The notes under the pieces: model-generated | The model's input: only the letters and a program-made list of their open reading frames with translations | The model's database searches: none | Told to the model about the DNA's origin: nothing | Part shown: positions 12,644 to 30,300 of the stretch, piece by piece | Layout of the letters: every line of letters begins with the position of its first letter | Numbering within the stretch: the stretch's first letter is position 1 | Source of the DNA: an uncultured Acidobacteriota bacterium | Lineage (GTDB): Bacteria > Acidobacteriota > Thermoanaerobaculia > Multivoradales > JAHEKO01 | Reading direction: 5' to 3' | Assembly: GCA_963713825.1 (NCBI GenBank) | Contig: CAVQNG010000014.1 | Location: 54,366-118,365, forward strand | DNA: 64,000 bases | Program-made: the position numbers and the translations under genes

Positions 12644-12650
12644 GTTGTGT

Positions 12651-13639: not shown

Positions 13640-13670
13640 TCCTCTGGACGGGCGGGGAAGGGCTCTGAGT

Positions 13671-14302: not shown

Positions 14303-14423
14303 CTCGGGCGACCTCGCGTTCTTGGAATAGCGTAATGATAGCATAATGCTTACAAGCAAACAGGCCCAGTCTTCTGCAGAGGACGGAACTTGGTGTTGCG
14401 ATCTCGCAGGGCGAGGGCGGGTT

Positions 14424-15744: not shown

Positions 15745-15754
15745 AACTGTTGTT

Positions 15755-16003
15755 CTAGGAGACCCTTGCAGCGATCAACTGCACGGCGTCACCCACCGTA
15801 TTCACTGCGTCGGCATCCTCGTCCTCGACCTCGATGTCGAAGGCGTCCTCGAAGTCGAGGATGATGTCGACCAAGCGGGCCGAGTTCACCTGCAGATCCT
15901 GGAGGATGTTCGTGTTCTCACCCACCGACTCGAAGGCTTCCTGGTTCTTGACGAACGGCTTGATGATCTCGATCACCTTGGCGAAAATCTCGTCTCTCGT
16001 CAT
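15755..16003 (-). CDS. Acyl carrier protein (dedicated, cassette-encoded)
   Basis: 82 aa, acidic. EIIKPFV..LQDLQVNSARLVDIILDFEDAFDIEV has the ACP four-helix pattern, with the Ser in NSA at the DSL position. Confidence 0.7.
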   Translation of the reverse strand: MTRDEIFAKVIEIIKPFVKNQEAFESVGENTNILQDLQVNSARLVDIILDFEDAFDIEVEDEDADAVNTVGDAVQLIAARVS

Positions 16004-16027
16004 GGCTTCTTCCTGTCTCGCAGAGTG

Positions 16028-17314
16028 TTAGCCGTTCCAACGACGGAAGACTAGACACGAATTGACGTCTCCGAAGCCGAAACCGGCCTTGATGATGGTC
16101 TTCAGCTGCGGCATTTCTAGCACACTGTGGGGAATCGAGCCAGCGAAAGCTTCGATTTCCGGATGTACATCCTCGCAGTTGAGGGATGGATGAACGAATC
16201 CTCCTGTCAGCATGAGGACGCATGCCACCGACTCCATGCCTCCAGCGGCACCGAGCCCGTGCCCGATCATCGACTTGGTAGAGACAATCGGTGGAAAGTC
16301 CTCTGGCGAGCGACCGAGCGCTTTCGACCAAGCGTTGACCTCTCTTGGGTCGGCGCCGGTTGCTGTCAGATGCCCGTTGATCGCGTCTATCTCGCTCGGG
16401 TCGATACCCGCGTCATCGATCGCTTGGCGAATGCAGCGCTGCACTCCTGTGGGATTCGGGGCGGTCATGCTTCCGCCGCCGCGGTGGCCGCCGCAGTTGA
16501 TGGCACCGCCGAGGATCTCCGCATGGATTCGAGCTCCCCGTGCTGTGGCACTCTCGAGGCTCTCCAGGTGCAGGATCCCGGCGCCGCTGCCCGGCACGAA
16601 ACCGCCCGCTGAAGCGCTCATGGGCCGCGAAGCTCTCTCGGGTTCGTCGTTGAACTTGCGACAAAGCACTCGCATGGAGTCGAAGCCGCTCCAGTTGTAG
16701 TGACTGGATCCTTCGGTTCCGCCGCACAACATGCGCTTCGCCAAACCCGAACGAATGCGGTAGTACCCGTCGATGATCGCTTCGGAACCTGTGCTGCAGG
16801 CGCTCGAGTTGGACGTGACCTGGTTGCCGAGGGCCAGCAGGCCGGCGACTCGTGCAGAGACTCCGCTGCCCATGACCTGTTCCACCACCGTGCTCCCAAG
16901 CCGGCGGACGCGGCCGCTGTCGACCAGGGGCACAATCCGCTCGCCAACAGTGTCGAGGCCCCCGATGCCGGTGCCGATGATTGCACCCACATCCCAATCG
17001 ATGGCCGCATCGTCCAGCGGATCTGGTCGTTCATAGCCGGCGTCGGTCCAGGCATCCACTGCCGCGATGCAGCCGAAGCGGTGGCTCGAGTTCATCGCTT
17101 TCAGCTCGTCGGGCGCAAAGTACTGCTCGGCCAACTCGTCCACGTCCTGGGGCACACCGGCCACCTGGCAGGCGAACTTGAGCTCGGCCAGCAGGGGAAT
17201 GTGGCGAATCCCGGAGGTGCCTCTTCTCAGGGCTTGCTCATACGCTTCTGTGCCGGTGGCGTTGGGTGCCACGACGCCCAAGCCGGTGACGACGACACGG
17301 CCGCTCTCACTCAC
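16028..17314 (-). CDS. Beta-ketoacyl-ACP synthase I/II (FabB/FabF-type KAS)
   Basis: GTG start at 17314 (V-SESGRVVVTGLGVV) forms a GTGA overlap with the FabZ-like stop. Motifs: active-site Cys region NSSACSTGSEAI, Hs GHLTATG and IGHGLGAAG, and C-terminal GFGFGDVNSCLVF. The 692-aa track ORF is a read-through in this GC-rich frame. Confidence 0.85.
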   Translation of the reverse strand: MSESGRVVVTGLGVVAPNATGTEAYEQALRRGTSGIRHIPLLAELKFACQVAGVPQDVDELAEQYFAPDELKAMNSSHRFGCIAAVDAWTDAGYERPDPLDDAAIDWDVGAIIGTGIGGLDTVGERIVPLVDSGRVRRLGSTVVEQVMGSGVSARVAGLLALGNQVTSNSSACSTGSEAIIDGYYRIRSGLAKRMLCGGTEGSSHYNWSGFDSMRVLCRKFNDEPERASRPMSASAGGFVPGSGAGILHLESLESATARGARIHAEILGGAINCGGHRGGGSMTAPNPTGVQRCIRQAIDDAGIDPSEIDAINGHLTATGADPREVNAWSKALGRSPEDFPPIVSTKSMIGHGLGAAGGMESVACVLMLTGGFVHPSLNCEDVHPEIEAFAGSIPHSVLEMPQLKTIIKAGFGFGDVNSCLVFRRWNG

Positions 17315-17787
17315 CGCTTCACCCCCATTCCCGAAATTGTTCCCTCGCATACCAGGGTGCCGTCTGCGAGGGTCATGCTGGCTTTCGAGCGAATCTTGCT
17401 GCGGCGCCAGAATACCTTTGTGGCCGAGATGGTCACTTCCGTGTCCGGTGGCACCATGGCGAAGAACTCGACCTCGGCGTCGGCGAAAAGGGATACCGTC
17501 TGCTCGGCTTCCTCCAAGGTGTGATCGAGGGCGAACAGATAGATGCCCAGTGCCACGACGCCTGCTTGACCCAGCGCTTCCAAGAGGATGACACCGGGTG
17601 TGACGGGATCGCCTGGGAAGTGTCCGCGGTAGAAGTCGGCCTCGGGTCGAAATCGATAGGTTGCGACAATGTGTTCTTCGTCGATTTCCAGAATGCGGTC
17701 CACGAAGCGGAAGGGCTCCTGCTGGGGGAGCATCTCCAGAACCTGATCCGGAGTCAGTGGGCCGAGGACTTCTGCAGAGCCCTTCAT
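17311..17787 (-). CDS. fabZ: 3-hydroxyacyl-ACP dehydratase, FabZ-like hotdog fold
   Basis: FRFVDRILEIDEE...YRGHFPGDPVTPGVILLEALGQAG matches the FabZ signature (HFPG.P..PGV). ATGA overlap with the fabA stop. Confidence 0.8.
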   Translation of the reverse strand: MKGSAEVLGPLTPDQVLEMLPQQEPFRFVDRILEIDEEHIVATYRFRPEADFYRGHFPGDPVTPGVILLEALGQAGVVALGIYLFALDHTLEEAEQTVSLFADAEVEFFAMVPPDTEVTISATKVFWRRSKIRSKASMTLADGTLVCEGTISGMGVKR

Positions 17788-18374
17788 TCGCCCATCTTTC
17801 CGCCCCGAGAGTTTCTGGAGCGCCGAGGATAGTCTGGATAATCGATGTCGCGGAACATTCCCACTTTGGCCCGCTTGATCTCGTAGATCGGGTCGTCGTC
17901 GACGCAGACGGTCGCGTCACCGAGGACCACGGCTGAGCCAGAGGTCGCGAGCGTTTGGTAGCGCACGATGTCGACCTCGTACCGAACGATGCTATTGAAA
18001 GGCCGGATCTGCCCGGCGAACTCGACTTCGCCGCAGCCGAGGGCTCTACCCGAGCCAAGAGCACCTCGCCAGGCGCAGTAGAAGCCCAGAAGCTGCCAGA
18101 CGGCATCGACGCCGAGGCACCCCGGCTGCACCGGGTCCCCGAGGAAGTGACACTGAAAGAACCAATCGTCGACCCGAACGTCGCGCTCTGCGACGATTCG
18201 CCCGCGGGCCCGTTTCGAGGACACCTCGACGATGCGATCGATCATAAGCATCGGCGGCAGCGGCAAACCCGTTTTGAGCTCCGGTGGGGCGTCGTCGAAG
18301 AGAGAGCCGTGTGCGATTGCCAGCACCTCCTCGTGGGAGAAGCTGGACTGGTTCTGAAATTCTTCGTACTTCAA
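17784..18374 (-). CDS. fabA: 3-hydroxydecanoyl-ACP dehydratase/isomerase FabA
   Basis: PPMLMIDRIVEV, DDWFFQCHFLGDPVQPGCLGVDAVWQLLGFYCAW and GRALGCGEVEFAGQIRP align along the full length of E. coli FabA. TTG start at 18374 forms a TTGA overlap with the KAS III stop. The ATG at 18461 would overlap KAS III by 91 nt. Confidence 0.8.
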   Translation of the reverse strand: MKYEEFQNQSSFSHEEVLAIAHGSLFDDAPPELKTGLPLPPMLMIDRIVEVSSKRARGRIVAERDVRVDDWFFQCHFLGDPVQPGCLGVDAVWQLLGFYCAWRGALGSGRALGCGEVEFAGQIRPFNSIVRYEVDIVRYQTLATSGSAVVLGDATVCVDDDPIYEIKRAKVGMFRDIDYPDYPRRSRNSRGGKMGE

Positions 18375-19366
18375 GCCTGACCTCCGAACCGAAGGATGTA
18401 GCTCGACCAGGTGAGCCCCGAGCCCACACCGATGATGGCGATGTTGTCTCCGTCCTGCCATCGGTCCCAGTTCATGGAGATGACCGATGGTGCGGCAGCC
18501 GCCCCGGTATTCCCAAACTCGACAACATTGGAGTGATGGTGGTCGGCATCGACTCCGCAGCGCTCGCAGACTGTCTCGAGCATCCGGAGATTGGCCTGAT
18601 GGCCGATGAAGTGGAGGTCATCGGCCACTTCCGGGAACGCCTTCTTGAGGTCGCGGAAGCACCGAATGGTCTTCTTGATCGCGAACATCTGGACAGTCCG
18701 CCCCTCCTGATCGAAGTGACCGAATAGCGGTGCGATGACCTTTTCTCTTCCGGCAGGGCTCGAAGCCAGGGTATTGCCGAGAATCTCGGCTCGTCCGGGT
18801 CGGCGAGTCGAAAGGACGGCTGCGGTGGTGCCATCTCCCCACAGCACAGAGGCCGACCGGTCGGAGTAGTCGACGGTGGTTGTAAGGCTCTCAGGTGTCA
18901 CCAGCAAAATGAGCTCTGGTAGGGCCTCGGGGCGCATCATGGAGAGCATGTACAGGGCGGCCCACATACTCGTACAGGCCGAGTTGATATCGAACGCCGG
19001 GACCTCGAGCTCGAGGGCGTCGGCAATGGCGCAGGCGTCGGCCGGGGAGGACATCTCGGGCCGACTGGACCCGGCAATGACCAGGCCGATCTGATCCTTG
19101 TCGATACCGGCCCGCTGGAGGGCCATCTCGGCCGCCCTCTTGCCCGTCTCGGCATGGGAGTAGAGAGCCGCCTCGAGGGCCATGGAGGGGTCCGCATTTC
19201 GGGTGTCCCGAATGTAGTCGAGGGGCATTACGGTACGACGAGTCTCGATTCCTACCCTCTCTTCGATCCACTCCTGGCTCGTACCGATGTCGAGCTCTTC
19301 CAGGAATCGATTGGTGATCTGGACCTCGGAATGGAAATGGCCGAGGCTGTGCAGGAACAGGCTCAT
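18371..19366 (-). CDS. Beta-ketoacyl-ACP synthase III family (FabH-like)
   Basis: The N-terminus aligns to FabH (VQITNRFLEELDIGTSQEWIEERVGIETRR). Cys/His/Asn triad context: DINSACTS, IGHQAN, FGNTGAA. Confidence 0.8.
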   Translation of the reverse strand: MSLFLHSLGHFHSEVQITNRFLEELDIGTSQEWIEERVGIETRRTVMPLDYIRDTRNADPSMALEAALYSHAETGKRAAEMALQRAGIDKDQIGLVIAGSSRPEMSSPADACAIADALELEVPAFDINSACTSMWAALYMLSMMRPEALPELILLVTPESLTTTVDYSDRSASVLWGDGTTAAVLSTRRPGRAEILGNTLASSPAGREKVIAPLFGHFDQEGRTVQMFAIKKTIRCFRDLKKAFPEVADDLHFIGHQANLRMLETVCERCGVDADHHHSNVVEFGNTGAAAAPSVISMNWDRWQDGDNIAIIGVGSGLTWSSYILRFGGQA

Positions 19367-20319
19367 CGCGAGGCCCCCGAAATGCGTTCGCCACCGTCGA
19401 CCCGGATGATCTCGCCATTGATCCAGCTGGCCTCTGGCAGGCAGAGCAGGTAGATGGCATTGGCGACATCTGCAGGAGTGGTCAGACGATGGAAGGGGTT
19501 GCGGAGGCGGGCCAGCGCCTTGAGGTGGGCGCTACCCGGAATCATCCGCAGGGCATTCGTATCTGTGACGCCGGCTTGCACGATGTTGGAGCGAATTCCG
19601 TATGGCGCCATCTCGACTGCGATAGAGCGCGAGACCGATTCGAGCGCGACCTTGGCCGCAGCCACGGCGGCGTAGCCCTTCCAGGCGACTTCGTTGCCTT
19701 CGCTTGTGAGGCCGAGTACTCGGGCATCGGAAGCAAATAGGCCCCGTTCGAGGATCTCCTGCGTCCAGCCGAGGAGGCTCGTGCCCATGGCGTGAACGGT
19801 GCGCGCCATGTCCTCTTCTTCCAGGAAGAGGTCGGCCGAGTACTGCGGTGGGGTGGTGAGGCCCTGGACGCCGTCGCATCCCTCCTCGAACAGGCGGTCG
19901 GCAGTCTCCCGCACGACGCTCTCTTCGATGCCGAGTGCCGCGGCGAGCTGGGCGCCGGCCGTATCGTTGGACGGCGCTTCGGGTCCGACGAGTTTCAGGT
20001 TGCCGAAAGCGATGGAGTGGAGGAGGACCCGGATCTTGCCGCTCGGTGCGAGGGCCTCGGTCAGTGTGTCCAAGATCTCACTGCGGACCTCGGAGTCGAG
20101 GGCATCCCGGTTGAAGGTCACCAGGGAGACACCCCGCTGGCGGAGGCGCTCGAATTCCGGTTCGATCTTGCGCATCGCTCCCCGACGATCCCGGTGCACG
20201 ATGCAGAGGTTCAAGCCGTGTTCGGCCAGCTTGTGAGCGGTGGCCAGTCCAAAGCCGCTGGAACCGCCGAGGATCAGGGCCCATTCATCGGTGCTGAAGC
20301 GTGTCGCTGAGACGTTCAC
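19363..20319 (-). CDS. SDR-family reductase with FabI/FabL-type Tyr-x6-Lys (putative enoyl-ACP reductase)
   Basis: GTG start with an AGGAA RBS. ILGGSSGFGLATA glycine motif. YAAVAAAK gives the Y-x6-K spacing typical of enoyl-ACP reductases. First gene of the cassette; ATGA overlap with KAS III. Confidence 0.6.
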   Translation of the reverse strand: MNVSATRFSTDEWALILGGSSGFGLATAHKLAEHGLNLCIVHRDRRGAMRKIEPEFERLRQRGVSLVTFNRDALDSEVRSEILDTLTEALAPSGKIRVLLHSIAFGNLKLVGPEAPSNDTAGAQLAAALGIEESVVRETADRLFEEGCDGVQGLTTPPQYSADLFLEEEDMARTVHAMGTSLLGWTQEILERGLFASDARVLGLTSEGNEVAWKGYAAVAAAKVALESVSRSIAVEMAPYGIRSNIVQAGVTDTNALRMIPGSAHLKALARLRNPFHRLTTPADVANAIYLLCLPEASWINGEIIRVDGGERISGASR

Positions 20320-20654
20320 TCGGGTTTCCTTCCCGGTGGAGTGCAGGCTGAGACCACCGTAGATGCATCGACCGCAAGCTCGATGCCCGACTTAGCTATC
20401 TCCTTTGATCTGGGGACAGAGAATACCAAAGGGACCGGATCGAGGTGAAGCGAGAAGCCAACTACAGAACCGCCTCGAGTCGTGCCGAGCGAGCTCGCGG
20501 TTGATGGTCAGAGCCGTGTTCAGTGCGAATGACCGCTTATAGACTCATGGCTACTCATCAATTGGATTAGCTGCGCACGCCGCCTTATGATCGTTGGGTT
20601 GTTGGAACCATTGTGGTCGAGACTCTTGGGATGTGAACCGGAAGGAGGAGTTGC

Positions 20655-21863
20655 ATGTCGGGTGGAAGGTCGATTTATCTGATGGTGGGTTTAGTGTTGG
20701 TCATGCTGTTTTCGATCGTACCGGCTGAAGGGTCGGGTCGAGGGGCTGGAGACTTCGAGTCGTGGGAGTGGGACGTGATCAAGCCGAGTGATCGTTTCGA
20801 TGGAAGCTGGTCGCCGCGGGCTGGGCTTCAGGTGGTCAAGCTGCGCAACACCTTTTACCTCATGGGCGGACGAACTCCGAAGCCACCCAGCTTCCCTCCA
20901 ATTCCCGGCGATAGCATCATTTGGGGAGACGTTTGGAAGAGTCGTAATTTGGGACGTACCTGGGAGAGAATTCTCGACACCGACTCCCCAGGTCACTGGC
21001 CCGCTCGTGCCTACTTTCAGGTCGTGAAGAAAGGCGGGTGGATGTACGTGGTCGGAGGACAGAACTTCAAGGCCGGCCCGGTCGACTGCCCCGTAGACGT
21101 GCCGATTTGCTCCGACTTTTTCAGTGATGTCTGGCGCAGCAAGAACGGTGTCGACTGGGTCGAGCTGACCGACGATGCTGGCTGGGAGCCTCGTGCAGGT
21201 CTCAGCAGTATTGTCTTCCGAGGCGAGATCTATGTGATGGCTGGTTCTCAGAATGATGACGAGTCGATTGGTCCCGGCGGTCCGGCCAGGATCTACTTTG
21301 ACGACGTCTGGAAGTCTCGCAATGGCAGGGATTGGGAGCTCGTGACCCAACATGCCCCGTGGGAAGCGCGAGCCGGCGCGGTCCTGGTAGAGAAGAACGG
21401 CTATATGTACTTGCTGGGGGGAGAGGAAGGATTCGTTTGCGATCCACTGCCGTTTTGCGAACCCCCGTACTTCAACGACGTATGGCGGTCGCGGAACGGT
21501 GCCGACTGGGAGCTGGTCACCGAGGCGGCTGGATGGTCTCCGCGACCCGGGCACCAGTGTGCCGTGGTGTTGAACAACTTCGTCTGCTTCGGCGGCTTTG
21601 GCCTTCTCGAGAATCCACAGGACGTCTGGGTCAGCAAGAACGGTGCGGACTGGCGGCAGGTCAATGACTCACCGTGGAACTCGACCTCGGCGGATGACAT
21701 CAAGTACGACTTCGACGTCTTGGTGGTGCGGGGCGGCAAGCGAGGACAGCGCCCATCGATCTTCACCTTCGGCGGCGATCGGGAGACCTTCGATTTCACC
21801 GACCCCACCAACTTTCTGAGAGTCGACAACGACGTCTGGAGATACTCGCCGCCCAAGCACTAA
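20655..21863 (+). CDS. Secreted Kelch-type beta-propeller protein
   Basis: GGAAGGAGG RBS and a signal peptide MVGLVLVMLFSIVPAEG. Six repeats of the D(V)W(K/R)S.NG.DWE.V blade motif. Confidence 0.75.
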   Translation: MSGGRSIYLMVGLVLVMLFSIVPAEGSGRGAGDFESWEWDVIKPSDRFDGSWSPRAGLQVVKLRNTFYLMGGRTPKPPSFPPIPGDSIIWGDVWKSRNLGRTWERILDTDSPGHWPARAYFQVVKKGGWMYVVGGQNFKAGPVDCPVDVPICSDFFSDVWRSKNGVDWVELTDDAGWEPRAGLSSIVFRGEIYVMAGSQNDDESIGPGGPARIYFDDVWKSRNGRDWELVTQHAPWEARAGAVLVEKNGYMYLLGGEEGFVCDPLPFCEPPYFNDVWRSRNGADWELVTEAAGWSPRPGHQCAVVLNNFVCFGGFGLLENPQDVWVSKNGADWRQVNDSPWNSTSADDIKYDFDVLVVRGGKRGQRPSIFTFGGDRETFDFTDPTNFLRVDNDVWRYSPPKH

Positions 21864-21914
21864 CGAGGGACGAAGGTTCGACTTCACAGATTGTCGGATC
21901 GAGCTGCCTTGACG

Positions 21915-21949
21915 CTGCCCCGGCCAGCCGGATCACTGGCTCGGGGCAG
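21915..21949. terminator. GC-rich hairpin downstream of the Kelch gene (possible terminator, no U-tract)
   Basis: CTGCCCCG...CGGGGCAG 8-bp stem with a nested AGCC/GGCT stem. Confidence 0.25.
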
Positions 21950-22245
21950 CCTTCGAGGGAGTTTCCAACAGGCCATCGAGAATGGCTTCCGCGGTGCTTT
22001 CCAGATAGGCGAGCTCTACGCTCGCTGCCCTGTTCATCCCCCGGCCAGATTTCCTATCGAGTCACGGTTGGATCTGCCTTCCTCGGAGCATTCGCACGAT
22101 ATGCTGCCAGTATTGGGATGATTTGGACCAGGGATCTGTGTGACCTCTGGGGCAGTTTCGCTCTATCAGGGGAGGATCCGGTCGGCTTGGACCGCGCCCT
22201 GAGATCCGCCAGAGCGCAGGTTTCAGCGGTGGGGAGGGGCTAACG

Positions 22246-23316
22246 ATGCGTCTGTCGAAGATGATCCAAGCGGTTGACACCCATGTTTGCGGTGAGCCCG
22301 GGAGGGTGATCGTCGGTGGGGTGCTGGATGTTCCCGGCTCGACGATGTTCGAGAAGATGCGGTATCTCGAAACCGAGGCTGACGACCTGCGGCTGAGGAT
22401 GCTCCGGGAGCCGAGGGGCTATCCGGCGACCTGCTGCAATCTCATCCTGCCGCCGACCCATCCAGATGCGCACGCCGGTTACGTGATCATGGAACAGGTC
22501 GAGTACCCGGGGATGTCGGGCACAAACACGATCGCGGTGGCTACGGTGCTCATCGAGACGGGGATGGTGCCATCGCAAGAGCCAGTAACCGAGTTACTGC
22601 TCGAATCCCCAGCTGGCCTGATCGCGATTCGGGCAGACGTACGAGGGGGAAAAGTCGAGCGTGTGACTTTCGAGAATGTCCCGGCGTTCCCGGTCCAACT
22701 GGACGCCGAGGTCGAAGTGCCCCATATCGGCAAGGTGAATGTCGATGTAGCCTATGGCGGTATGTTCTACGTCATCGCGGATGCCGATCAGTTGGGACTG
22801 AGCTTGAGCGCCGCCGAAGGGGGGGAGGCCGCTCGGGTCGGAGAGATGATCAAGGCGGCGACCATCGAGCAGCTCGAAACGCCGGTCCATCCGGAGAACC
22901 CTGACATTCGGGGCGTGACGATCAGTCAATTGTCGGCTCCATCGACCAACCCGATCGCCGACCGCAAGAACACGGTGATCGTCTCCTCGGGCGAGCTGGA
23001 TTGGAGTCGGCCCAGCACCTGGACAGGTGTCCTCGACCGTTCCCCCTGCGGCACCGGCACATCGGCCAAGATGGCCTGTCTGTGGGCCAAAGGCCATCTA
23101 CCGCTCGATCAGGACTTCGTGCACGAGGGAATCTTGGGTACGACCTTCACTGGCAGGCTGGTGCGAGAGACAAAGGTCGGCAATATCGAGGCCGTTGTGC
23201 CAACGATCTCTGGCACTGCGTGGATCACGGGGTTCGCCCAGTACGTGGTCGATCCCGACGACCCCTTTCCCAATGGGTTTACCGTAGGTGACATCTGGGG
23301 CGGACAGGAGGAGTAA
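22246..23316 (+). CDS. Proline racemase-family enzyme (4-hydroxyproline epimerase / 3-hydroxyproline dehydratase-like), Ser/Cys active-site pair
   Basis: GGGGAGGGG RBS. MSGTNTIAV stands where epimerases carry MCGH(G), so the first catalytic Cys is replaced by Ser. DRSPCGTGTSAKMA retains the second catalytic Cys. Confidence 0.85.
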   Translation: MRLSKMIQAVDTHVCGEPGRVIVGGVLDVPGSTMFEKMRYLETEADDLRLRMLREPRGYPATCCNLILPPTHPDAHAGYVIMEQVEYPGMSGTNTIAVATVLIETGMVPSQEPVTELLLESPAGLIAIRADVRGGKVERVTFENVPAFPVQLDAEVEVPHIGKVNVDVAYGGMFYVIADADQLGLSLSAAEGGEAARVGEMIKAATIEQLETPVHPENPDIRGVTISQLSAPSTNPIADRKNTVIVSSGELDWSRPSTWTGVLDRSPCGTGTSAKMACLWAKGHLPLDQDFVHEGILGTTFTGRLVRETKVGNIEAVVPTISGTAWITGFAQYVVDPDDPFPNGFTVGDIWGGQEE

Positions 23317-23320
23317 GGGA

Positions 23321-24289
23321 ATGGTACAGATCATCCCTCTTGAAGTCATTGAACGCGTTCTGAAACGGATCGATGTCGTCGGGCTGATGGAGGAGGGCTT
23401 TGTCGCCTATTCTGAAGGGCGGGCGATGGTGCCGCCCGTCGGCGAGCTGATCTTCGAAGATCCACCGGGCGAAACCCACATCAAGTATGGCTACATCCGG
23501 GGCGGAGATCACTATGTCATCAAGATCGCCTCGGGTTTCTATGGGAATTCCGAGATCGGCTTGCCGTCGGGCAGCGGCTTGATGCTCCTTCTCAGCCAGA
23601 AGACAGGCTTCCTCGAAGCGGTCTTGCTCGACGAGGGCCGTCTCACCGATGTGCGGACCGCTGCGGCTGGTGCCGTGGCCGCTAAGCACCTGGCGCCGAG
23701 TGAGGTTCGGCGCATCGGAATTCTGGGTGGAGGAGTGCAGGCTCGACTCCAGTTGGAGCTCATGCTGCCGTTCATCTCGTGTCGGCAGGTCCTGGTTTGG
23801 ATGCGCGATCCCGCCGAGGCCGAGCCCTACCTGCAGTACTTCGCAGACTCGGATGCGGAGATCGAGATTGCAGGTAGTGCCGAGGAGGTCGCCGATGGCT
23901 GCAATCTGATCGTAACTGCGACTCCCTCCAAGACACCATTGCTTTCGGCGGCGAGCATCCAAGCCGGGACTCATATCACCGCCATTGGCTCGGATACGGT
24001 CGACAAGATCGAGTTGGCTCCGGAAATCCTCGGCAATGCGGACCTGGTTGTGGTCGACAGTCTCTCTCAGTCGGAAGCTCGGGGCGAGGTCTTTCGAGCT
24101 GTGGATGCGGGAGCACTGAGTCGCGAGACCGTTGTCGAGTTGGGTGCCGTCGTCGCGGGCCACGCTACGGGCCGAGTCGATGACAGCCAGGTGACCGTTT
24201 GCGACCTGACCGGAGTCGCCGTGCAGGACCTGATGATTGCCCAGGGCGTGAAAGACGGGGCCGACCCGGAATCAAGTCACGAGTTCTGA
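23321..24289 (+). CDS. Ornithine cyclodeaminase / mu-crystallin family protein (candidate delta1-pyrroline-2-carboxylate reductase)
   Basis: Start MVQIIPLEV at 23321 with an AGGGA RBS right after the preceding stop. Rossmann motif RIGILGGGVQA. OCD-family C-terminus. Confidence 0.8.
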   Translation: MVQIIPLEVIERVLKRIDVVGLMEEGFVAYSEGRAMVPPVGELIFEDPPGETHIKYGYIRGGDHYVIKIASGFYGNSEIGLPSGSGLMLLLSQKTGFLEAVLLDEGRLTDVRTAAAGAVAAKHLAPSEVRRIGILGGGVQARLQLELMLPFISCRQVLVWMRDPAEAEPYLQYFADSDAEIEIAGSAEEVADGCNLIVTATPSKTPLLSAASIQAGTHITAIGSDTVDKIELAPEILGNADLVVVDSLSQSEARGEVFRAVDAGALSRETVVELGAVVAGHATGRVDDSQVTVCDLTGVAVQDLMIAQGVKDGADPESSHEF

Positions 24290-24361: not shown

Positions 24362-26369
24362 ATGAACCGGAAGCGCCTCCTGAACACGCTTGTGGCCTGC
24401 GGCATCTTCGGACTCGTGTCGCACTCTTCGATCGCAGCGCAGGCGAAGCGGGCGATGACCGTCGACGACATGCTCGACATGGTTCGCGTTGACGACGTCC
24501 TGATGACGCCGGATGGTTCGAGAGTCTTCTTCACCGAACGCCGACTGAACTGGGAGACGAACAAGTACGAGAAGACTCTATTCGCGATCTCTTCTCGCGG
24601 TGGCGAGGCCGTGCCGTTCGTGCGAAAGGACGGCGGGGAGAGCTACCGGATCTCTCCCGACGGGAAGTTCCTATCTCTCTTGCGAGAGGTCGAGGACAAG
24701 CCCCAGATCTTCCTGATGTCTCTGGAGGGCGGTGAGCCCTGGCAGTTGACTGAACACCAGGGCAAGATCACCGACTATCGATGGTCCGGCGATAGCAGGA
24801 GCCTCGTTTTCGTTTCCGAGCAGGCCATGTCCGAAGAAGAGGAGAAAGAGTTCAAGCTGGGCAACGACCCCATCTATGTCAATGAGGGGCCCAGCGGCAA
24901 GAATCACGGCAGGTGGACCCATCTCTGGCGGGTCGATCTTCAAGCCAAGGCCGAGATCCCGATCCTCGAAGAGGACCGCCTGATCGACGGCTTCGATGTG
25001 TCGCCGGACGGCTCGAGAGTGGTCTTCTCTGCCCGGCCTGACAATCGCGGCAACTTCCCGTTTACTTCGGAGCTCTATGTTGTCGATACAGAAGGTGGTG
25101 ATCCGATCAAGGTCACCGACAACCAGGATCTCGAGTTCGATCCGCTCTGGTCCCCCGATGGGAAGACCTTCGTCTTTCATGCCAGCAGCGGCAAGGGCTT
25201 CGATCTCAGGAACGGGTATCTCTGGATTCTGAATCCAGACACTGGGGCGCTCCGAAGGCTCGAAGCGCATCACATCGGCGAGATCGATCATCTGGTGTGG
25301 AGCGCTGATGGCAAGAGCCTGCTCTTCAATGAGGTACATGGCACCGACACCAACCTGTACAGGCTCGACATTGCCTCCGATGCGTTGGTGGCCCTGACGA
25401 GCCAGTCCGGGACCTTTCGCGCTCTCGCTTACTCGACAGGACAGAAGTGCGATTGCCTACTCCTTCAACGATTTCGATACACCGACGGACCTCTATGCAT
25501 CGGCTCTCGACGGATCTGGAGCCATCCGACTTACCGACGCCAACCCGTGGATCGAAGAAGACATTCTCCTTCCCAAGAGTCGAATTCTCCAGTGGAAGAG
25601 CTCGGACGGCACGAGCATCGAGGGCATCTTCATGCTTCCCTCTGACTACCGTGAAGGAGCGCAGGTGCCCCTGGTCTTGCAGATTCACGGCGGACCCAGT
25701 GGCTATTGGGCCAACGCCTTCGAACCGGACCTGATCGTCTACACGGGTCTCGGCTATGCGGTGCTGGGACCCAATGTCCGGGGTTCCAGTGGGTACGGTG
25801 ATGATCTGCTCAGGGGGCTGATGGGTGATGTCGGCGGGGGCGAGTATCAGGACCTGATGTCGGGAGTCGACCAAGTCATCGAGGCCGGCTATATCGACCC
25901 CGAGAAGATGGGAGTCGCTGGTTGGAGCTGGGGCGGCGTGCTGGCTGGCTGGGTGATCACCCAGACCGACCGATTCAAGGCGGCTTCCGTCGGTGCAGGG
26001 GTGAGCAATTGGATCGCGGAAAGCGGCCCGGGCTACAACTGGGACATCTCCCATTGGCACGTCGGTGGAAAGCACTGGACCAACCGAGACGAGTGGCGCC
26101 GCCGCTCGGCCATCAACTTCGTGGAGAACGTCCAGACGCCAACCCTGTTCTTGCACGGGGAGAAAGACCAGACGAGCAGTACCAACCAGAGTATGGTCTA
26201 CTTCGACGCTCTACAGGAGCGCGGCATCCCGACCCGATTCATCAAGTTCCCTCGGCAGGAGCACGGAATCCGCGAGCCACGACTCCTCAGGGTCCGCATC
26301 GTCGAAGAGATTCGATGGATGGAGAAGTACGTGCGCGGCGTTGACTGGTCGCCGTGGACTCGAGACTAG
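24362..26369 (+). pseudogene. S9 family peptidase (beta-propeller plus catalytic domain) interrupted by a +1 frameshift near 25448
   Basis: The 24362..25645 frame (signal peptide, propeller) reads sensibly to ...GTFRALAYSTGQK, then degenerates. The +1 frame continues AIAYSFNDFDTPTDLY...GWSWGG (Ser nucleophile) to the stop at 26369. Removing one base restores a ~668-aa protein. Either a true pseudogene or an assembly indel. Confidence 0.6.
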
Positions 26370-26388: not shown

Positions 26389-27318
26389 ATGCAATTCGAA
26401 GGCATCTACACACCGGTGATCACGCCGATGGGGCCCGATCGGGAGATCGATGAGAAGGGGTGGGTCGAGGTGATCGAGCACCTTGTGGGGCAGGGGATGC
26501 ATGGGTTGGTGCTGGGCGGTACGACTGGCGAGAACTACGCGCTGACGACCAAGGAGCGTATCCGCCAATTTCAGTACGGCAACGAGGTGATTGCCGGGCG
26601 GGTGCCGTGGGTTGCCGGCGTCAACGACATCCGGACCGAGGATGTCAGTGACTATGCGGTCGCTGCCCGAGAAGCCGGGGCCGCGGCGATCCTGCTGGCA
26701 GTGCCACCGTACTCGATACCCAACGACAAGGAGCTGGCACAGCATGCGTTGGCCGTTGACAAGGCCTGCGGCCTGCCGGTGATGTTGTACAACTACCCGG
26801 GACGATCGGGGACAGGGTTCGGGCGTGAGTTTCTCGAGAGGGTGAGTCGGAACAGTAACTTCACGGCGATCAAGGAGAGCAGCGGTGACCTCGACCGCAT
26901 CCATATGATTGCCCGGGAGTTCCCCCATCTGCAGCTGAGCTGCGGCGCGGACGATCAAGCCCTGGAGTTCTTTGTCTGGGGAGCGCGCTCATGGGTCTGT
27001 GCTGCGGGGAACTTCCTTGGTGCCGAGTGCATCGCCCTCTATGAAACCTGCGTGCTGCAAGAGGACTTCGCCAAGGGACGCCGGATCATGAAGGCTCTGC
27101 TGCCGGTCATGACGGTGCTGGAGCGGGGCGGGAAGTTCGCACAATGCGTGAAGTATGGATGCGAAATGGATGGGCTGCCGGCGGGAACCGTGCGTTTGCC
27201 CCTGCGGCCGATGAAGAAGGAACTGAAACGTCAGATGCGAGATGCGGTGTTGACGGCGCGGAAGACGATCAAGGGGATCTTGGCAGCATCGCCGGAGCCT
27301 GCAGCGCCAGCGAGCTGA
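26389..27318 (+). CDS. DapA/dihydrodipicolinate synthase-family lyase (candidate pyrroline-hydroxy-carboxylate deaminase)
   Basis: Start MQFEGIYTPVITPM with an AGGAG RBS. GLVLGGTTGE and YNYPGRSG motifs of the DHDPS/NAL family. The 26065 track ORF start is an upstream read-through overlapping the peptidase. Confidence 0.85.
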   Translation: MQFEGIYTPVITPMGPDREIDEKGWVEVIEHLVGQGMHGLVLGGTTGENYALTTKERIRQFQYGNEVIAGRVPWVAGVNDIRTEDVSDYAVAAREAGAAAILLAVPPYSIPNDKELAQHALAVDKACGLPVMLYNYPGRSGTGFGREFLERVSRNSNFTAIKESSGDLDRIHMIAREFPHLQLSCGADDQALEFFVWGARSWVCAAGNFLGAECIALYETCVLQEDFAKGRRIMKALLPVMTVLERGGKFAQCVKYGCEMDGLPAGTVRLPLRPMKKELKRQMRDAVLTARKTIKGILAASPEPAAPAS

Positions 27319-27378: not shown

Positions 27379-28906
27379 ATGACGGATGTTCTGACGCGAG
27401 AAGAGTACGTTGGGGTCGCGAAGGCCATGACGTATCCCGCCAGCTCGTGGATCAATGGGAAGTTCACGACCGCGAAGTCGGGGGAGACCTACGAATCGAC
27501 GAACCCTGCCACCGGTGAAGTTCTGGCCAAGATCGCCTCTTGTGGGCGAAGAGGAGGTGGACTACGCGGTGAAGAAGGCACGACAGGCCTTCGATGCGGG
27601 AGTGTGGTCGCGGCTGCATCCGTCCGAGCGCAAAGACATCATGATCCAGTGGGTCAAGCGCCTGAAGCGAGAGCGTTACGAGCTGACGGTTCTGGAGAGT
27701 CTCGAGAGCGGCAAGCCGGTCCGCGACATCGCCGAGATCGACCTCGAGGAGACGATCCACTGCCTGGCCTGGTATGCGGAGGCGGCCGACAAGCTGTTCG
27801 GCAAGATGACGCCATCGGGTGATGACGCCATGGGCCTGGTTGTACGAGAGCCGGTTGGCGTCGTGGGCTGCGTTCTGCCGTGGAATTTCCCGATGCTGAT
27901 GTTCGCGTGGAAGGTCGGTCCAGCGCTGGCGGCGGGAAATAGCGTCATCGTCAAGGCCGCAAAGGAAACGAGCATGACGGCGGTGCGCCTGGCGGAACTG
28001 GCGAGTGAAGCGGGTGTTCCGGATGGCGTATTGAACGTCGTGACCGGGCCCGGATCGAGGGTGGGGAAGGCGATTGGTACTCACGACGGAATCGACGCGG
28101 TTTCCTTCACGGGCTCGACCGAAATCGGTCGAGAGTTCTTGAAATACTCTGCAAACAGCAATCTAAAGAAGGTCACTCTCGAGCTCGGAGGCAAGAACCC
28201 GGCGGTGGTGCTGTCGGATGCCGAACACCTGGATGCGGTGGCCGAGCACGTGGTGAATGCCTGCTTCTGGAACATGGGGCAGAACTGCACCTCCAACAGT
28301 CGGCTCATCGTGCACAAGGACGTGAAGGAGGATCTGGTCGAGCGGATTCTCATCAAGGTTCGCGAATGGCGCACGGGTGATCCGCTGGAGCCGTCGAATC
28401 GGTTCGGCTCGATGGTGTCGAAAGAGCACTTCGACAAAGTCATGGGCTACATCGAGACCGGGAAGAAGGAGGGCGCGACCCTTCTGCTCGGGGGCGAGCC
28501 GATGGAGGAGGGAAGTGGCCTCTTCATTCCACCGACGATCTTCGACGACGTGACGCCCGAGATGACCATCTACAAGGAGGAGATCTTCGGGCCGGTTCTG
28601 GCCATCACGACCGCCGGCAGCGACGACGAGGCGCTGCTGCTCGGCAACGACACCTGCTACGGACTTCAGGCGTCGCTCTTCAGTGGGGGGCTGCGGAATG
28701 CCCTGCGTGGGGCCCGAGAGCTCAAGGCCGGCACCGTCTCGGTGAACAGCTACACCGAAGGCGACATCACGACACCCTTCGGCGGCATGAAGCTGTCTGG
28801 CTTCGGCGGCCGCGACAACGGGCTCGAGGCCTTCGACCAATACCTCGAAACGAAGACGATCTGGCTCGACCTGAGCGACTACGAGGTCGACGCCGAGCTG
28901 GACTGA
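27379..28906 (+). pseudogene. NAD(P)-dependent aldehyde dehydrogenase with a +1 frameshift near 27541-27546
   Basis: TAGGAG RBS. The N-terminus MTDVLT...STNPATGEVLAKIAS is in the 27379 frame. The rest (GEEEVDYAVKKARQAF...ELGGKNP...catalytic Cys region QNCTSNSR) is in the 27455 frame. One extra base in TGTGGG causes the shift. Confidence 0.6.
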
Positions 28907-28910
28907 CCCC

Positions 28911-29607
28911 TCAACCCTCCTTCCAGGGATTGGTCGCAAAGACGGCGAACTCGGGCCATAGAGCCCGGCGCTCGGCCGAGATCGCGGAGAGAATCGCGTC
29001 GGCGATATCGGAGGCGTAGAGCTTGTTGGGATTGTTGCGACCGACCTTGCCACCCCAGGCGGTCTGGACCTCGGAAGGGCACACGCAGATAACGCGGATG
29101 TCGTGCGGGCGTAGCTCAGCCTGCCAGCACTGACTCAACTCCTCGCACGGCCCACTTGCTTGCCGAGTAGGCGGTGCCGTGGGCGTGGCCCTTGATCCCC
29201 GAGGTCGAGGCGATGTTGACGATGTCGCCGCTGCCCTGCGCTTTCATCATGGGAACAACGCGGTTGGTCAAGTCGACCATTCCGAAAACGTTGGTGTTGA
29301 ACAGGGCCTTCATGGCGTCCATGTCGACCTCGCCGATCTCAGCCATGTAGCCGTAGCCGGCATTGTTGACCAACACGTCGATGCCGCCCATTCGCTCCTG
29401 ACAAGCCTCGACTGTACGAGCGTTGTCCTCGGCGATAGAGACATCAGCCTGCACTCCGTGTGCTCCCGTCTCCGCGGCCACCTGTTCGATCAACTCTTCA
29501 TTGCGCCCGGTGAAGACGACTTCGCCACCGCTCTTTCGGGCCGCTTCGACAATCGCGGCTCCGATCCCCTGACTGCCGCCGGTAATCAAGTATCGTGTCC
29601 CTGCCAT
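28911..29607 (-). pseudogene. Classical SDR oxidoreductase with a +1 frameshift near 29130
   Basis: The 29116..29607 ORF (TGGSQGIGAAIVEAA ... YSASKWAVRG) stops abruptly. The protein continues as LSQCWQAELRPHDIRVICVCPSEVQT in the 28911..29138 ORF. One extra G causes the shift. Confidence 0.55.
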
Positions 29608-29658
29608 GAGGTTTCTCCTTTGTTGATGAGGGCCGATCTTACAGCGTCGCGATCGGCA

Positions 29659-30057
29659 CTAGGCCAACTCGATGGGGCAGACCTGGCTCATGCGCTCGAA
29701 GTCGCGATCCGTGGTGAGCAACTGACAATCGTTCTCGATCGCGCTCGCTGCGATGTGACAGTCGATGGTAGAGGCACCCAGGCCATGATCTCGACATTGC
29801 CGATAGAGTCGCGCAGCTACCCGGCAGAGGCTGGATTCGACGGGGAGGAGTGGAAAAGGCTCGAAGTAATCGGCGATCTGGGAAGCCACCTTCTCACTTC
29901 GGAAAGCCTGCAGAATCTCCTGCAGGATCAAGGCTGTCAGAAACAGGTCCTCCCCGGTGTCCAGATAGCGACGCAGCTTCCTCACCGCTGGATGTTCGGC
30001 CGGACCGCCGCGGCGCAGAGCCAGCGACCATACCGAGGTATCGACGAGAATCCTCAC
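29659..30057 (-). CDS. vapC: Type II toxin VapC (PIN domain)
   Basis: GTG start at 30057 (VRILVDTSVWSLAL) forms a GTGA overlap with vapB. C-terminal PIN residues TTDRDFERM. Confidence 0.7.
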   Translation of the reverse strand: MRILVDTSVWSLALRRGGPAEHPAVRKLRRYLDTGEDLFLTALILQEILQAFRSEKVASQIADYFEPFPLLPVESSLCRVAARLYRQCRDHGLGASTIDCHIAASAIENDCQLLTTDRDFERMSQVCPIELA

Positions 30058-30254
30058 CGTCTCTGCCGCTCCTTCTTGTGGTCGTACTCGGCATCCCAAT
30101 CGACCCGGCCGAAGAGGCTGACGATTTCACGGCGCTTGCGCCGCGCTACGTACTCTTCCAGCGCCTCGTTGACGGCCTGCCTCTTGGTGCGGTGGCCCCC
30201 GAGTCTGCGGGCTTCATCGATCAGTTCGTCGTCGAGGGCGAGATTGGTGGGCAT
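30054..30254 (-). CDS. vapB: Type II antitoxin VapB (MPTNLALDDELIDEA-type)
   Basis: MPTNLALDDELIDEARRLGGHRTKRQAVNEALEEYV is the conserved VapB antitoxin N-terminus. Confidence 0.7.
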   Translation of the reverse strand: MPTNLALDDELIDEARRLGGHRTKRQAVNEALEEYVARRKRREIVSLFGRVDWDAEYDHKKERQRR

Positions 30255-30265
30255 GTGGGTGGCTC

Positions 30266-30300
30266 CTTTTACACATTAACTTACACATAATATCACACAA
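30266..30300. promoter_or_regulatory. AT-rich direct repeats TTACACA x2 (+TCACACA) upstream of vapB; candidate promoter/operator
   Basis: Seen in sequence 12-45 nt upstream of the vapB ATG at 30254. Stands out in otherwise GC-rich DNA. Confidence 0.35.

What the first reader, a model, noticed from the sequence alone, without database searches (positions are those of the whole stretch)
22246..24289. Proline-racemase-family enzyme with a Ser/Cys catalytic pair, adjacent to an OCD/mu-crystallin reductase
The first catalytic Cys of epimerases and racemases (MCGH) is replaced by Ser in MSGTNT. The second (DRSPCGTG) is kept. Loss of one general base is associated with dehydratase rather than epimerase chemistry in this family. 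An OCD-family neighbour is the known partner (Pyr2C reductase) in 3-hydroxyproline catabolism. A DapA-like lyase and an ALDH downstream complete a Hyp-to-2-oxoglutarate route. The upstream Kelch protein and the S9 peptidase suggest extracellular peptide or collagen feeding.
Basis: partly seen in the sequence, partly recalled or inferred. Interest (0 to 1): 0.5.

Follow-up and report, generated by a model that had tools for sequence, protein, structure and literature searches.

The report
Ser/Cys proline-racemase-family hydroxyproline enzyme
This is an intact gene for a proline-racemase-family enzyme with a serine/cysteine catalytic pair, sitting next to an OCD-family reductase in a hydroxyproline/peptide breakdown cluster of an uncultured Acidobacteriota-like bacterium. 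Both the enzyme type and the pairing are already described, so it is an ordinary new member, and sequence cannot tell whether it is an epimerase or a dehydratase.

Summary
ORF 22246..23316 is a full-length proline-racemase-superfamily (PRS) protein with Ser91 (MSGTNT) at the first catalytic position and Cys268 (DRSPCGTG) at the second. All 120 closest homologue clusters keep both. An OCD/mu-crystallin gene starts 5 nt after its stop codon.

In this family it is the second-site Cys-to-Thr change that goes with dehydratase chemistry. Two Ser/Cys enzymes have been characterised:
- B9JQV3 (PDB 4LB0) is a 4-hydroxyproline 2-epimerase.
- PA1255 (LhpL) is a trans-3-hydroxy-L-proline 2-epimerase with weak dehydratase activity.

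Ser/Cys is common: 40 of 111 aligned sequences, most of them family representatives, carry it.

The window protein belongs to its own uncharacterised subfamily, found mainly in Acidobacteriota and Gemmatimonadota MAGs. It is 35-41% identical to every solved PRS enzyme and below the cut-off of every NCBIfam model. Related loci carry both kinds of partner genes:
- 4-Hyp pathway partners: DAO-DHDPS-PRS-prolidase.
- 3-Hyp pathway partners: PRS-OCD.

The most likely function is a promiscuous hydroxyproline 2-epimerase/dehydratase. The proposed "Hyp-to-2-oxoglutarate route" is incomplete in the window because no D-hydroxyproline oxidase is encoded there. Three downstream genes carry frameshifts. Verdict: a new member of a known kind, of low to moderate interest.

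The parts
22246..23316 (+). Proline-racemase-superfamily gene (356 aa), Ser/Cys type. ATG start with a GGGGAGGGG ribosome-binding site upstream.
   Evidence: AlphaFold model with pLDDT 94.1, TM 0.87-0.89 to 4K7G, 4Q2H and 4LB0.
22516..22527 (+). Codons for Ser91-Gly-Thr-Asn94. Ser91 is at the first catalytic position. Asn94 is the residue proposed to position the catalytic Ser.
   Evidence: Alignments. Motif described in PMC4113996.
23047..23049 (+). Codon for Cys268, the second catalytic position in DRSPCGTG.
   Evidence: Conserved in 120 of 120 homologues.
22993..23028 (+). Clade-specific insertion of about 12 residues (ELDWSRPSTWTG) just before the DRSPCGTG motif.
   Evidence: Absent from the aligned solved structures AsProR (7PB3), 4LB0/4Q2H and 4K7G/4K8L. 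TW[TK]G is conserved in the clade. Modelled with pLDDT of about 91.
23321..24289 (+). OCD/mu-crystallin-family NAD(P)-dependent oxidoreductase (322 aa), probably translationally coupled to the PRS gene. Presumed imine (Pyr2C) reductase.
   Evidence: Pfam 208.8 bits. Best NCBIfam hit PRK06823, 369 bits against a cut-off of 438. Best PDB hits: 1OMO alanine dehydrogenase 158 bits; 6T3E Pyr2C reductase 107 bits. Start codon supported.
24362..26369 (+). Secreted S9 (prolyl-oligopeptidase/DPP-type) peptidase, split into two ORFs by a frameshift near 25419-25474.
   Evidence: The homologue in L085 is a single intact 601-aa protein.
26389..27318 (+). DHDPS/DapA-like lyase, a candidate Pyr4H2C deaminase. 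ATG at 26389 with an AGGAG ribosome-binding site.
   Evidence: Pfam DHDPS. The dapA model scores below its cut-off. 93% identical to the DHDPS of L084. Start shown. Best PDB hit is 3NA8.
27379..28906 (+). Aldehyde dehydrogenase, a candidate 2-oxoglutarate-semialdehyde dehydrogenase. Frameshift at about 27540, apparently an extra G.
28914..29607 (-). Short-chain dehydrogenase, convergent with the operon. Frameshifted, but intact in relative L084.
20655..21863 (+). Kelch-repeat protein with a signal peptide. A neighbour only; no evidence that it belongs to the pathway.
   Evidence: Weak Pfam Kelch hits. Present 5 kb away from the PRS gene in L084, with unrelated genes between.

Best explanation
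The gene encodes a functional Ser/Cys-type proline-racemase-superfamily enzyme that acts on free hydroxyproline released from peptides.

Inferred mechanism, from characterised relatives: Ser91, held in place by Asn94, removes the alpha-proton of the L-imino acid. Cys268 on the opposite face can give a proton back. [quoted passage not shown] With the 3-hydroxy substrate, loss of the beta-hydroxyl gives delta1-pyrroline-2-carboxylate (Pyr2C) as a parallel reaction. The translationally coupled OCD-family enzyme would reduce Pyr2C to L-proline. The DapA-like lyase and the ALDH would carry the 4-hydroxy branch from pyrroline-4-hydroxy-2-carboxylate to 2-oxoglutarate.

In short, it is a promiscuous hydroxyproline epimerase/dehydratase of the kind already described for PRS 'cluster 3' and LhpL, in a new and uncharacterised subfamily.

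Shown here: family membership, the catalytic pair, conservation, and gene order. Inferred: substrates, the balance between epimerase and dehydratase activity, and the roles of the neighbouring genes.
For: - Family and catalytic pair. Fold.
- The pair is fixed in 120 of 120 homologues.
- Literature. The Ser/Cys enzyme B9JQV3 (4LB0) is a 4HypE with weak 3HypE activity. Cluster 3 enzymes are promiscuous 4HypE/t3HypD, and their neighbourhoods hold OCD or MLD2 together with DAAO, DHDPS and ALDH (PMC4113996). The Ser/Cys enzyme PA1255/LhpL is a bifunctional t3LHyp 2-epimerase and dehydratase (PMC5144071 and supplement; Ser/Cys status from PMC1964878).
- Synteny in close relatives keeps the same genes together in different orders: PRS-OCD-DHDPS-ALDH (L084), DHDPS-ALDH-PRS-OCD (L002), PRS-DHDPS (L001), and PRS-OCD-aminotransferase-S9 (L085).
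- More distant members of the same clade (72-75% identity in the listing) sit in the canonical 4-Hyp arrangement DAO-DHDPS-SDR-PRS-M24 prolidase.
- Peptidases recur nearby.
- PRS and OCD are 5 nt apart, with a ribosome-binding site inside the end of the PRS gene.
Against: - No activity has been measured for any member of this subfamily.
- It is only 35-41% identical to every characterised PRS enzyme and falls below every NCBIfam equivalog cut-off.
- Its pocket residues (Cys/Asn at site 1, Thr at site 3, Ile at site 4, Val at site 5) match none of the characterised groups.
- No D-hydroxyproline oxidase is encoded in the window, so the 4-Hyp branch is incomplete here.
- The OCD homologue scores higher against A. 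fulgidus alanine dehydrogenase than against a solved Pyr2C reductase.
- 50 of the 80 genome loci show none of the Hyp partner genes within 10 kb.
- S9, ALDH and SDR carry frameshifts in the window.
Confidence: 0.55

Rival explanations
1. First reader's view. [quoted passage not shown] With the OCD-family Pyr2C reductase it converts 3-hydroxyproline to L-proline, and epimerisation is negligible.
For: - PRS-OCD adjacency with probable translational coupling is conserved in the closest relatives.
- OCD-family neighbours identified t3HypD subfamilies in PMC4113996 and PMC3958920.
- The best-scoring NCBIfam model is T3LHypDht (344.6 bits).
- The top fold match is the t3HypD 4K7G.
- Watanabe et al. 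suggest that both LhpL types, Ser-Cys and Ser-Thr, act as t3LHyp dehydratases.
Against: - The second catalytic Cys is kept in 120 of 120 homologues.
- Dehydratases with solved structures or clear kinetics have Thr at that site.
- The human T-to-C mutant gains epimerase activity (PMC3958920).
- The one Ser/Cys enzyme with dehydratase activity (PA1255) makes mostly the epimer, and its dehydration is about 6000-fold weaker than that of a dedicated dehydratase.
- The T3LHypDht score is far below its cut-off of 550 and is almost tied with the ProR model (334.9 bits).
- Clade members occur in DAO-DHDPS contexts that have no OCD.
Confidence: 0.2
2. The enzyme is a plain 4-hydroxyproline 2-epimerase, like B9JQV3. 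The OCD-family enzyme is not a Pyr2C reductase. Instead it replaces the missing FAD-dependent D-hydroxyproline oxidase as an NAD(P)+-linked imino-acid dehydrogenase that feeds the DapA-like deaminase and the ALDH.
For: - The Ser/Cys precedent is a 4HypE.
- The four genes PRS-OCD-DHDPS-ALDH form one tight same-strand block in L084 and are also clustered, in a different order, in L002. This mirrors the canonical epimerase-oxidase-deaminase-ALDH set.
- Among loci with DHDPS, 13 also have OCD and 3 have DAO, and no listed locus has both OCD and DAO.
- The best solved relative of the OCD homologue is an NAD-dependent amino-acid dehydrogenase (1OMO).
Against: - No OCD-family D-hydroxyproline dehydrogenase is known.
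- Characterised family members that reduce cyclic ketimines such as Pyr2C give the L-amino acid.
- The counts are confounded by shared ancestry, since most OCD+DHDPS loci belong to one syntenic lineage.
- A DAO gene could lie elsewhere in the genome; only about 10 kb on each side was examined.
Confidence: 0.15
3. The enzyme is a proline racemase, or acts on another cyclic amino acid such as pipecolate or a hydroxyectoine-like compound, and is unrelated to hydroxyproline.
For: - The ProR model PRK13969 scores nearly as high as the top model, and AsProR is the most identical solved protein (41%).
- In about 12 related loci the neighbourhood also holds PALP and OCD genes together with a TRAP transporter (in 10 of the 12 in the listing), which resembles EutB/EutC/Ueh of hydroxyectoine catabolism.
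- The third-best NCBIfam hit for the OCD homologue is EutC.
Against: - It lacks the Cys/Cys pair and the two pocket phenylalanines of ProR (PMC1964878).
- No PrdAB D-proline reductase genes are found nearby.
- All characterised Ser-type PRS enzymes act on hydroxyproline.
- The window itself holds no gene of the TRAP (DctM/DctP) or PALP neighbour families in the 10 kb on either side of the PRS gene.
Confidence: 0.07

Closest known systems
LhpL / PRS 'cluster 3' enzymes: PA1255 of P. aeruginosa (Ser/Cys), B9K4G4 (PDB 4K7G) and A6WW16 (PDB 4K8L) (Ser/Thr)
   Same: - First-site Ser with the Ser-x-x-Asn motif; a second-site Cys as in PA1255.
- Located in a hydroxyproline cluster that combines a Pyr2C-reductase-type gene with DHDPS and ALDH genes.
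- Highest HMMER scores (276 and 257 bits) and the top fold match (TM 0.89).
   Different: - Only about 39% identical in the structural alignment.
- Below the T3LHypDht model cut-off (345 against 550 bits).
- Site 1 is Cys/Asn instead of His.
- Carries a 12-residue insertion before DRSPCGTG.
- Forms a separate branch in the NJ tree.
- Hosts are Acidobacteriota and Gemmatimonadota rather than Proteobacteria.
Ser/Cys 4-hydroxyproline 2-epimerase, PRS 'cluster 9' (B9JQV3, PDB 4LB0; also 4Q2H)
   Same: - Identical catalytic pair and the Ser-x-x-Asn motif.
- DHDPS and ALDH genes in the neighbourhood.
- Clade relatives sit in DAO-DHDPS contexts.
   Different: - 35-36% identity.
- Motif is GMSGTNT rather than ASSGSNS.
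- Site 1 is Cys/Asn rather than Ser, and site 5 is Val rather than Met.
- No DAAO gene in the window.
- An OCD gene is directly coupled to it.
Cys/Thr trans-3-hydroxy-L-proline dehydratases: human L3HYPDH (PDB 7QPO), A. brasilense LhpH, T. litoralis (PDB 6R76)
   Same: Same fold. An OCD-family Pyr2C reductase is the partner in A. brasilense, C. psychrerythraea and T. litoralis (PMC3958920, PMC4141209).
   Different: The pattern of catalytic residues is the opposite one: Cys then Thr, against Ser then Cys here. Identity is 30-36%.
Proline racemase (T. cruzi PRAC, PDB 1W61; Acetoanaerobium ProR, PDB 7PB3)
   Same: Same fold. The DRSPCGTGTSAK motif is identical to that of AsProR, and this is the highest pairwise identity found (41%).
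   Different: - First Cys replaced by Ser, and MCGH replaced by MSGT.
- The pocket phenylalanines are replaced by Cys and Val.
- No D-proline reductase genes nearby.

Membership tests
Proline racemase superfamily (Pfam PF05544 / IPR008794) | Full-length match to the family profile | tested here: met
   398.9 bits, residues 10-346 on profile positions 2-325 of 325.
Proline racemase superfamily (Pfam PF05544 / IPR008794) | Two-domain pseudo-symmetric fold shared with solved PRS enzymes | tested here: met
   AlphaFold pLDDT 94.1, pTM 0.91. TM 0.86-0.89 to 4K7G, 4LB0, 1W61 and 7PB3.
Proline racemase superfamily (Pfam PF05544 / IPR008794) | Conserved DRSPxGTG motif and M-x-G motif carrying the two catalytic residues | tested here: met
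   MSGTNT and DRSPCGTG are present. M90, G92, R265 and G269 are invariant in a 60-sequence alignment.
Ser-type PRS enzymes (Zhao et al. 2014) | Catalytic Ser positioned by an Asn three residues downstream (S-x-x-N) | tested here: met
   S91-G-T-N94. The +3 column is Asn in all Ser-type groups and Gly in ProR. Motif described in PMC4113996.
Ser/Cys 4-hydroxyproline 2-epimerase (cluster 9, B9JQV3/4LB0) | Ser/Cys catalytic pair | tested here: met
Ser/Cys 4-hydroxyproline 2-epimerase (cluster 9, B9JQV3/4LB0) | Sequence membership of the same isofunctional cluster (about 60% identity or more in the eLife sequence similarity network) | tested here: not met
   35-36% identity to 4LB0 and 4Q2H. Separate branch in the NJ tree.
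Ser/Cys 4-hydroxyproline 2-epimerase (cluster 9, B9JQV3/4LB0) | Neighbourhood with DAAO, DHDPS and ALDH | tested here: inconclusive
   DHDPS and ALDH are present, but no DAO-like gene is found in the window. DAO-DHDPS-PRS occurs in 3 related loci.
Ser/Cys 4-hydroxyproline 2-epimerase (cluster 9, B9JQV3/4LB0) | Epimerisation of trans-4-hydroxy-L-proline in vitro | not testable with these tools
   Needs an enzyme assay.
[quoted passage not shown] | Thr, not Cys, at the second catalytic position (Cys/Thr or Ser/Thr) | tested here: not met
   Cys268 is conserved in 120 of 120 homologues. The typing rule comes from PMC3958920, PMC4113996 and the PMC5144071 supplement. The exception is PA1255 (Ser/Cys), which has weak dehydratase activity.
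[quoted passage not shown] | Score above the cut-off of the NCBIfam equivalog models NF047722 / NF045511 | tested here: not met
   344.6 against 550 bits, and 262.6 against 540 bits.
[quoted passage not shown] | Adjacent Pyr2C reductase gene (OCD or MLD2 family) | tested here: met
   An OCD-family gene lies 5 nt downstream, and the adjacency is kept in L002 and L081-L086. The reductase activity itself was not tested.
Proline racemase (EC 5.1.1.4) | Cys/Cys pair, Phe at pocket sites 1 and 5, PrdAB neighbours | tested here: not met
   The pair is Ser/Cys. Site 1 is Cys and site 5 is Val. No Prd genes appear among the ORFs examined.
OCD-family delta1-pyrroline-2-carboxylate reductase (LhpI type) | OCD/mu-crystallin fold with a Rossmann G-x-G-x-x-A motif | tested here: met
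   Pfam 208.8 bits. GGGVQA can be read in the translation.
OCD-family delta1-pyrroline-2-carboxylate reductase (LhpI type) | Score above the cut-off of the Pyr2C/Pip2C reductase models (NF045512, NF004793, NF005603) | tested here: not met
   62.8 against 400 bits, 129.2 against 322 bits, and 86.3 against 266 bits. Zhao et al. found this activity in four divergent OCD clusters, so this failure is weak evidence.

The most novel reading that the evidence does not exclude
PRS-OCD-DapA-like-ALDH is a complete, flavin-oxidase-independent route from 4-hydroxyproline to 2-oxoglutarate. In it, an OCD/mu-crystallin-family enzyme takes the place of the FAD-dependent cis-4-hydroxy-D-proline oxidase and acts as an NAD(P)+-linked imino-acid dehydrogenase that produces pyrroline-4-hydroxy-2-carboxylate. 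This would explain two observations: the four genes stay together in different orders in close relatives, and no fetched locus of the clade carries both OCD and DAO.
Probability: 0.12. Interest if true: 0.5.

Novelty: new member of a known kind. Interest (0 to 1): 0.25.

Why it matters
If the assignment holds, it extends hydroxyproline (collagen and peptide) catabolism to abundant, mostly uncultured soil and sediment Acidobacteriota and Gemmatimonadota. It also adds an uncharacterised Ser/Cys subfamily to a superfamily in which the catalytic pair is known to be an unreliable guide to function. The practical use is better annotation: the few source names seen in the homologue search call these genes 'proline racemase', which is almost certainly wrong. 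It does not open a new mechanism. The only potentially new biology is the oxidase-less four-gene block described as the novel case.

Tried and rejected
- A first neighbourhood clustering based on longest ORFs was polluted by antisense shadow ORFs in these high-GC loci. I replaced it with a GC3-weighted ORF choice.
- The eLife activity tables and supplements are not held as text, so per-cluster catalytic pairs had to be rebuilt from the PDB sequences and the main text.
- The listing of cluster members gave no informative names.
- I could not obtain the PA1255 sequence. Its Ser/Cys status rests on PMC1964878 Table 1 and the PMC5144071 supplement. Its cluster-3-like nature rests on the peptides encoded by the qPCR primers.
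- Comparing pocket residues at the published ligand sites did not discriminate. The clade has its own pattern.
- The fold search did not discriminate either. The dehydratase, the epimerase and the racemase all match at TM 0.86-0.89.
- The promoter and terminator scan found nothing above the shuffled expectation.
- A tblastn search of the window with DAO proteins from related loci found nothing (best E = 0.43).
- The large 'SDR' neighbour cluster turned out to be several unrelated SDR groups, so I did not use it as a single partner family.
- NCBIfam gave no specific names for the DAO, DHDPS, SDR or AKR neighbours.
Full report
**What is there**

ORF 22246..23316 (+) encodes a 356-aa protein containing GMSGTNT and DRSPCGTG. 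It has an ATG start preceded by GGGGAGGGG. It matches Pfam Pro_racemase over its whole length (398.9 bits). HMMER alignments to solved structures place Ser91 opposite the first catalytic Cys of Acetoanaerobium proline racemase (MCGH) and Cys268 opposite the second. A 111-sequence MAFFT alignment agrees.

An AlphaFold model built from 60 homologues is confident (pLDDT 94.1). It superposes on PRS structures at TM 0.86-0.89.

The serine is not an error:
- All 120 nearest homologue clusters (76-100% identity) have MSG[TS]NT and DRSPCGTG.
- Three independent metagenome contigs match window 19061..24121 at about 99% identity without gaps.
- Asn94 completes the Ser-x-x-Asn motif that Zhao et al. proposed for all Ser-type members (PMC4113996).

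**Neighbours**

- The OCD/mu-crystallin gene starts at ATG 23321, 5 nt after the PRS stop codon. A GGAGGAG sequence overlaps the end of the PRS gene.
- A secreted S9 peptidase follows at 24362..26369.
- Then come a DapA-like lyase (26389..27318) and an aldehyde dehydrogenase (27379..28906).
- A convergent SDR lies at 28914..29607 on the minus strand.
- Compared with relatives at 86-89% identity, the S9, ALDH and SDR genes each carry a frameshift. The ALDH frameshift looks like one extra G at about 27540.
- A Kelch-repeat protein with a signal peptide lies upstream.
- No DAO-type oxidase is detectable anywhere in the 64 kb window.

**What the literature says about the catalytic pair**

PRS enzymes are typed by their two active-site residues:
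- Cys/Cys: proline racemase and 4-Hyp epimerase.
[quoted passage not shown] The first-site residue is assigned the proton abstraction: a Cys in the proposed dehydratase mechanism, Ser 93 for the trans-to-cis direction in B9JQV3, and Ser 90 for dehydration in B9K4G4. Replacing the second-site Cys by Thr removes the proton donor and favours elimination of the 3-hydroxyl. The human enzyme's Thr-to-Cys mutant gains epimerase activity.

Two Ser/Cys enzymes have been assayed:
- B9JQV3 of Agrobacterium vitis (PDB 4LB0) is a 4-hydroxyproline 2-epimerase with weak 3-Hyp epimerase activity (PMC4113996).
- PA1255 (LhpL) of P. aeruginosa is listed as Ser/Cys by Goytia et al.. [quoted passage not shown] When coupled to a Pyr2C reductase it also gives some L-proline. 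It is therefore a bifunctional epimerase/dehydratase with a low dehydration efficiency of 1.23 mM-1 min-1 (PMC5144071 and supplement).

A retained second Cys predicts epimerisation, with dehydration at most in parallel.

Zhao et al. also showed that some Ser/Thr enzymes epimerise 4-Hyp, and that 'cluster 3' is promiscuous. Cluster 3 neighbourhoods combine OCD or MLD2 reductases with DAAO, DHDPS and ALDH. The pair alone therefore decides nothing.

**Where the protein sits in the family**

- No NCBIfam equivalog reaches its cut-off. T3LHypDht scores 345 against 550 bits, ProR 335 against 556, and 4HypE 257 against 376.
- Identity to every solved PRS enzyme is 35-41%.
- In a neighbour-joining tree of representatives, the window and its relatives form their own branch inside a large 'Ser-first' group. 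That group also contains cluster 9 (4LB0, 4Q2H) and cluster 3 (4K7G, 4K8L).
- Ser/Cys is the common state in that group (40 of 111 sequences). Ser/Thr appears several times within it.
- The clade carries a 12-residue insertion (ELDWSRPSTWTG) before DRSPCGTG that is absent from the aligned solved structures.
- It has its own pocket pattern at the published ligand sites: Cys/Asn, Thr, Ile and Val. This matches neither the epimerase, the dehydratase nor the racemase groups.
- Hosts are almost all uncultured: Thermoanaerobaculia, Holophagales, Vicinamibacteria, Bryobacteraceae, Gemmatimonadota and a few Chloroflexota.

**Genome context across the clade**

Closest relatives:
- L084 (89% identity): PRS-OCD-DHDPS-ALDH as one tight block, followed by the convergent SDR.
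- L002 (86%): DHDPS-ALDH-PRS-OCD.
- L001 (88%): PRS-DHDPS.
- L085 (86%): PRS-OCD-aminotransferase-S9 peptidase.

About twenty Thermoanaerobaculia and Holophagales genomes share a larger cluster: PALP, OCD, a sodium:solute symporter, an M28 peptidase, AKR, PRS, SDR, a TRAP transporter and DHDPS.

Three Terriglobia/Bryobacteraceae loci (L042, L053 and L068, 73-74% identity) show DAO-DHDPS upstream of the PRS gene. In L053 and L068 an SDR lies between DHDPS and PRS, and L053 continues with an M24 prolidase. This is the canonical 4-hydroxyproline arrangement.

Over the 80 species-level loci, the counts are:

| Partner gene | Loci |
|---|---|
| OCD | 16 |
| DHDPS | 21 |
| ALDH | 8 |
| DAO | 4 |
| None of these | 50 |

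These counts are inflated by shared synteny.

One subfamily, more than 70% identical throughout, is therefore linked both to 4-Hyp partners and to the 3-Hyp partner, and repeatedly to peptidases. By the logic validated in PMC4113996, that pattern points to a promiscuous hydroxyproline enzyme.

**Conclusion on mechanism**

- A plain 4-Hyp epimerase, with the OCD enzyme standing in for the missing oxidase, is the most novel reading that is not excluded. I put it at about 0.15 as a rival explanation and 0.12 in its strict four-gene form.
- A proline racemase or another substrate is unlikely (about 0.07).

The claim that the cluster 'completes a Hyp-to-2-oxoglutarate route' is not met in the window, because the oxidase step is missing and the ALDH is frameshifted. 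Nothing links the Kelch protein to the pathway.

**Novelty and interest**

Ser/Cys PRS enzymes, their placement in hydroxyproline clusters, and OCD-family Pyr2C reductases as partners were all described between 2014 and 2016. This is a new, uncharacterised subfamily of a known kind, useful mainly for correcting 'proline racemase' annotations in Acidobacteriota and Gemmatimonadota. Interest is 0.25.

Noticed in passing
window 24362..26369, 27379..28906, 28914..29607: Three consecutive genes downstream of PRS-OCD each carry a frameshift relative to relatives at 86-89% identity: the S9 peptidase, the ALDH and the SDR. The ALDH frameshift looks like one extra G at about 27540. These are either indel errors of a long-read assembly or the start of gene decay.
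   Followed up: partly
window 22993..23028: An insertion of about 12 residues (ELDWSRPSTWTG, conserved TW[TK]G) lies directly before the DRSPCGTG catalytic motif. It is shared by this clade and some sister Ser/Cys groups and is absent from the aligned solved PRS structures (7PB3, 4LB0/4Q2H, 4K7G/4K8L). A Trp close to this position matters for hydroxyproline recognition in the T. litoralis enzyme (PMC4364671).
   Followed up: partly
loci L005-L027, L034, L040, L043, L048 (around 8800..15600 in locus coordinates): About 20 Thermoanaerobaculia, Holophagales and 'Multivorans' genomes keep the order AKR-PRS-SDR-TRAP(DctQMP)-DHDPS. Upstream lie an M28 peptidase, a sodium:solute symporter and, in about a dozen of these loci, OCD and a PALP enzyme. 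The roles of the AKR and the orthologous SDR are unknown. The PALP+OCD+TRAP set resembles EutB/EutC/Ueh of hydroxyectoine catabolism.
   Followed up: partly
L053 7131..12300, L042 7143..11062, L068 7057..11056: Terriglobia/Bryobacteraceae members of the same PRS clade have DAO-DHDPS upstream of the PRS gene. In L053 and L068 an SDR lies between DHDPS and PRS, and L053 continues with an M24 prolidase as a tight same-strand block. This is the canonical 4-hydroxyproline arrangement, with no OCD gene.
   Followed up: yes
window 14998..20319 (minus strand): A lipid- or polyketide-like gene set: an acyltransferase, an 82-aa ACP-like ORF (15755..16003), a 692-aa ketosynthase with an N-terminal extension of about 270 aa and no Pfam match, a FabH-like KAS III, and a FabL-like enoyl reductase/SDR.
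   Followed up: no
window 5106..11894: Two large RND (ACR_tran-like) transporter genes. They are syntenic with relative L084, where they also lie upstream of the Kelch and PRS genes.
   Followed up: no
window 32850..34172 and 34254..34828: A DUF222 + HNH endonuclease ORF (440 aa), followed by two small overlapping ORFs that look like a toxin-antitoxin pair. A PIN-like ORF lies at 13671..14072.
   Followed up: no
window 29179..30279: The 366-aa ORF listed on the plus strand has no Pfam match and poor codon-position GC. It overlaps the frameshifted minus-strand SDR and is almost certainly a shadow ORF.
   Followed up: yes
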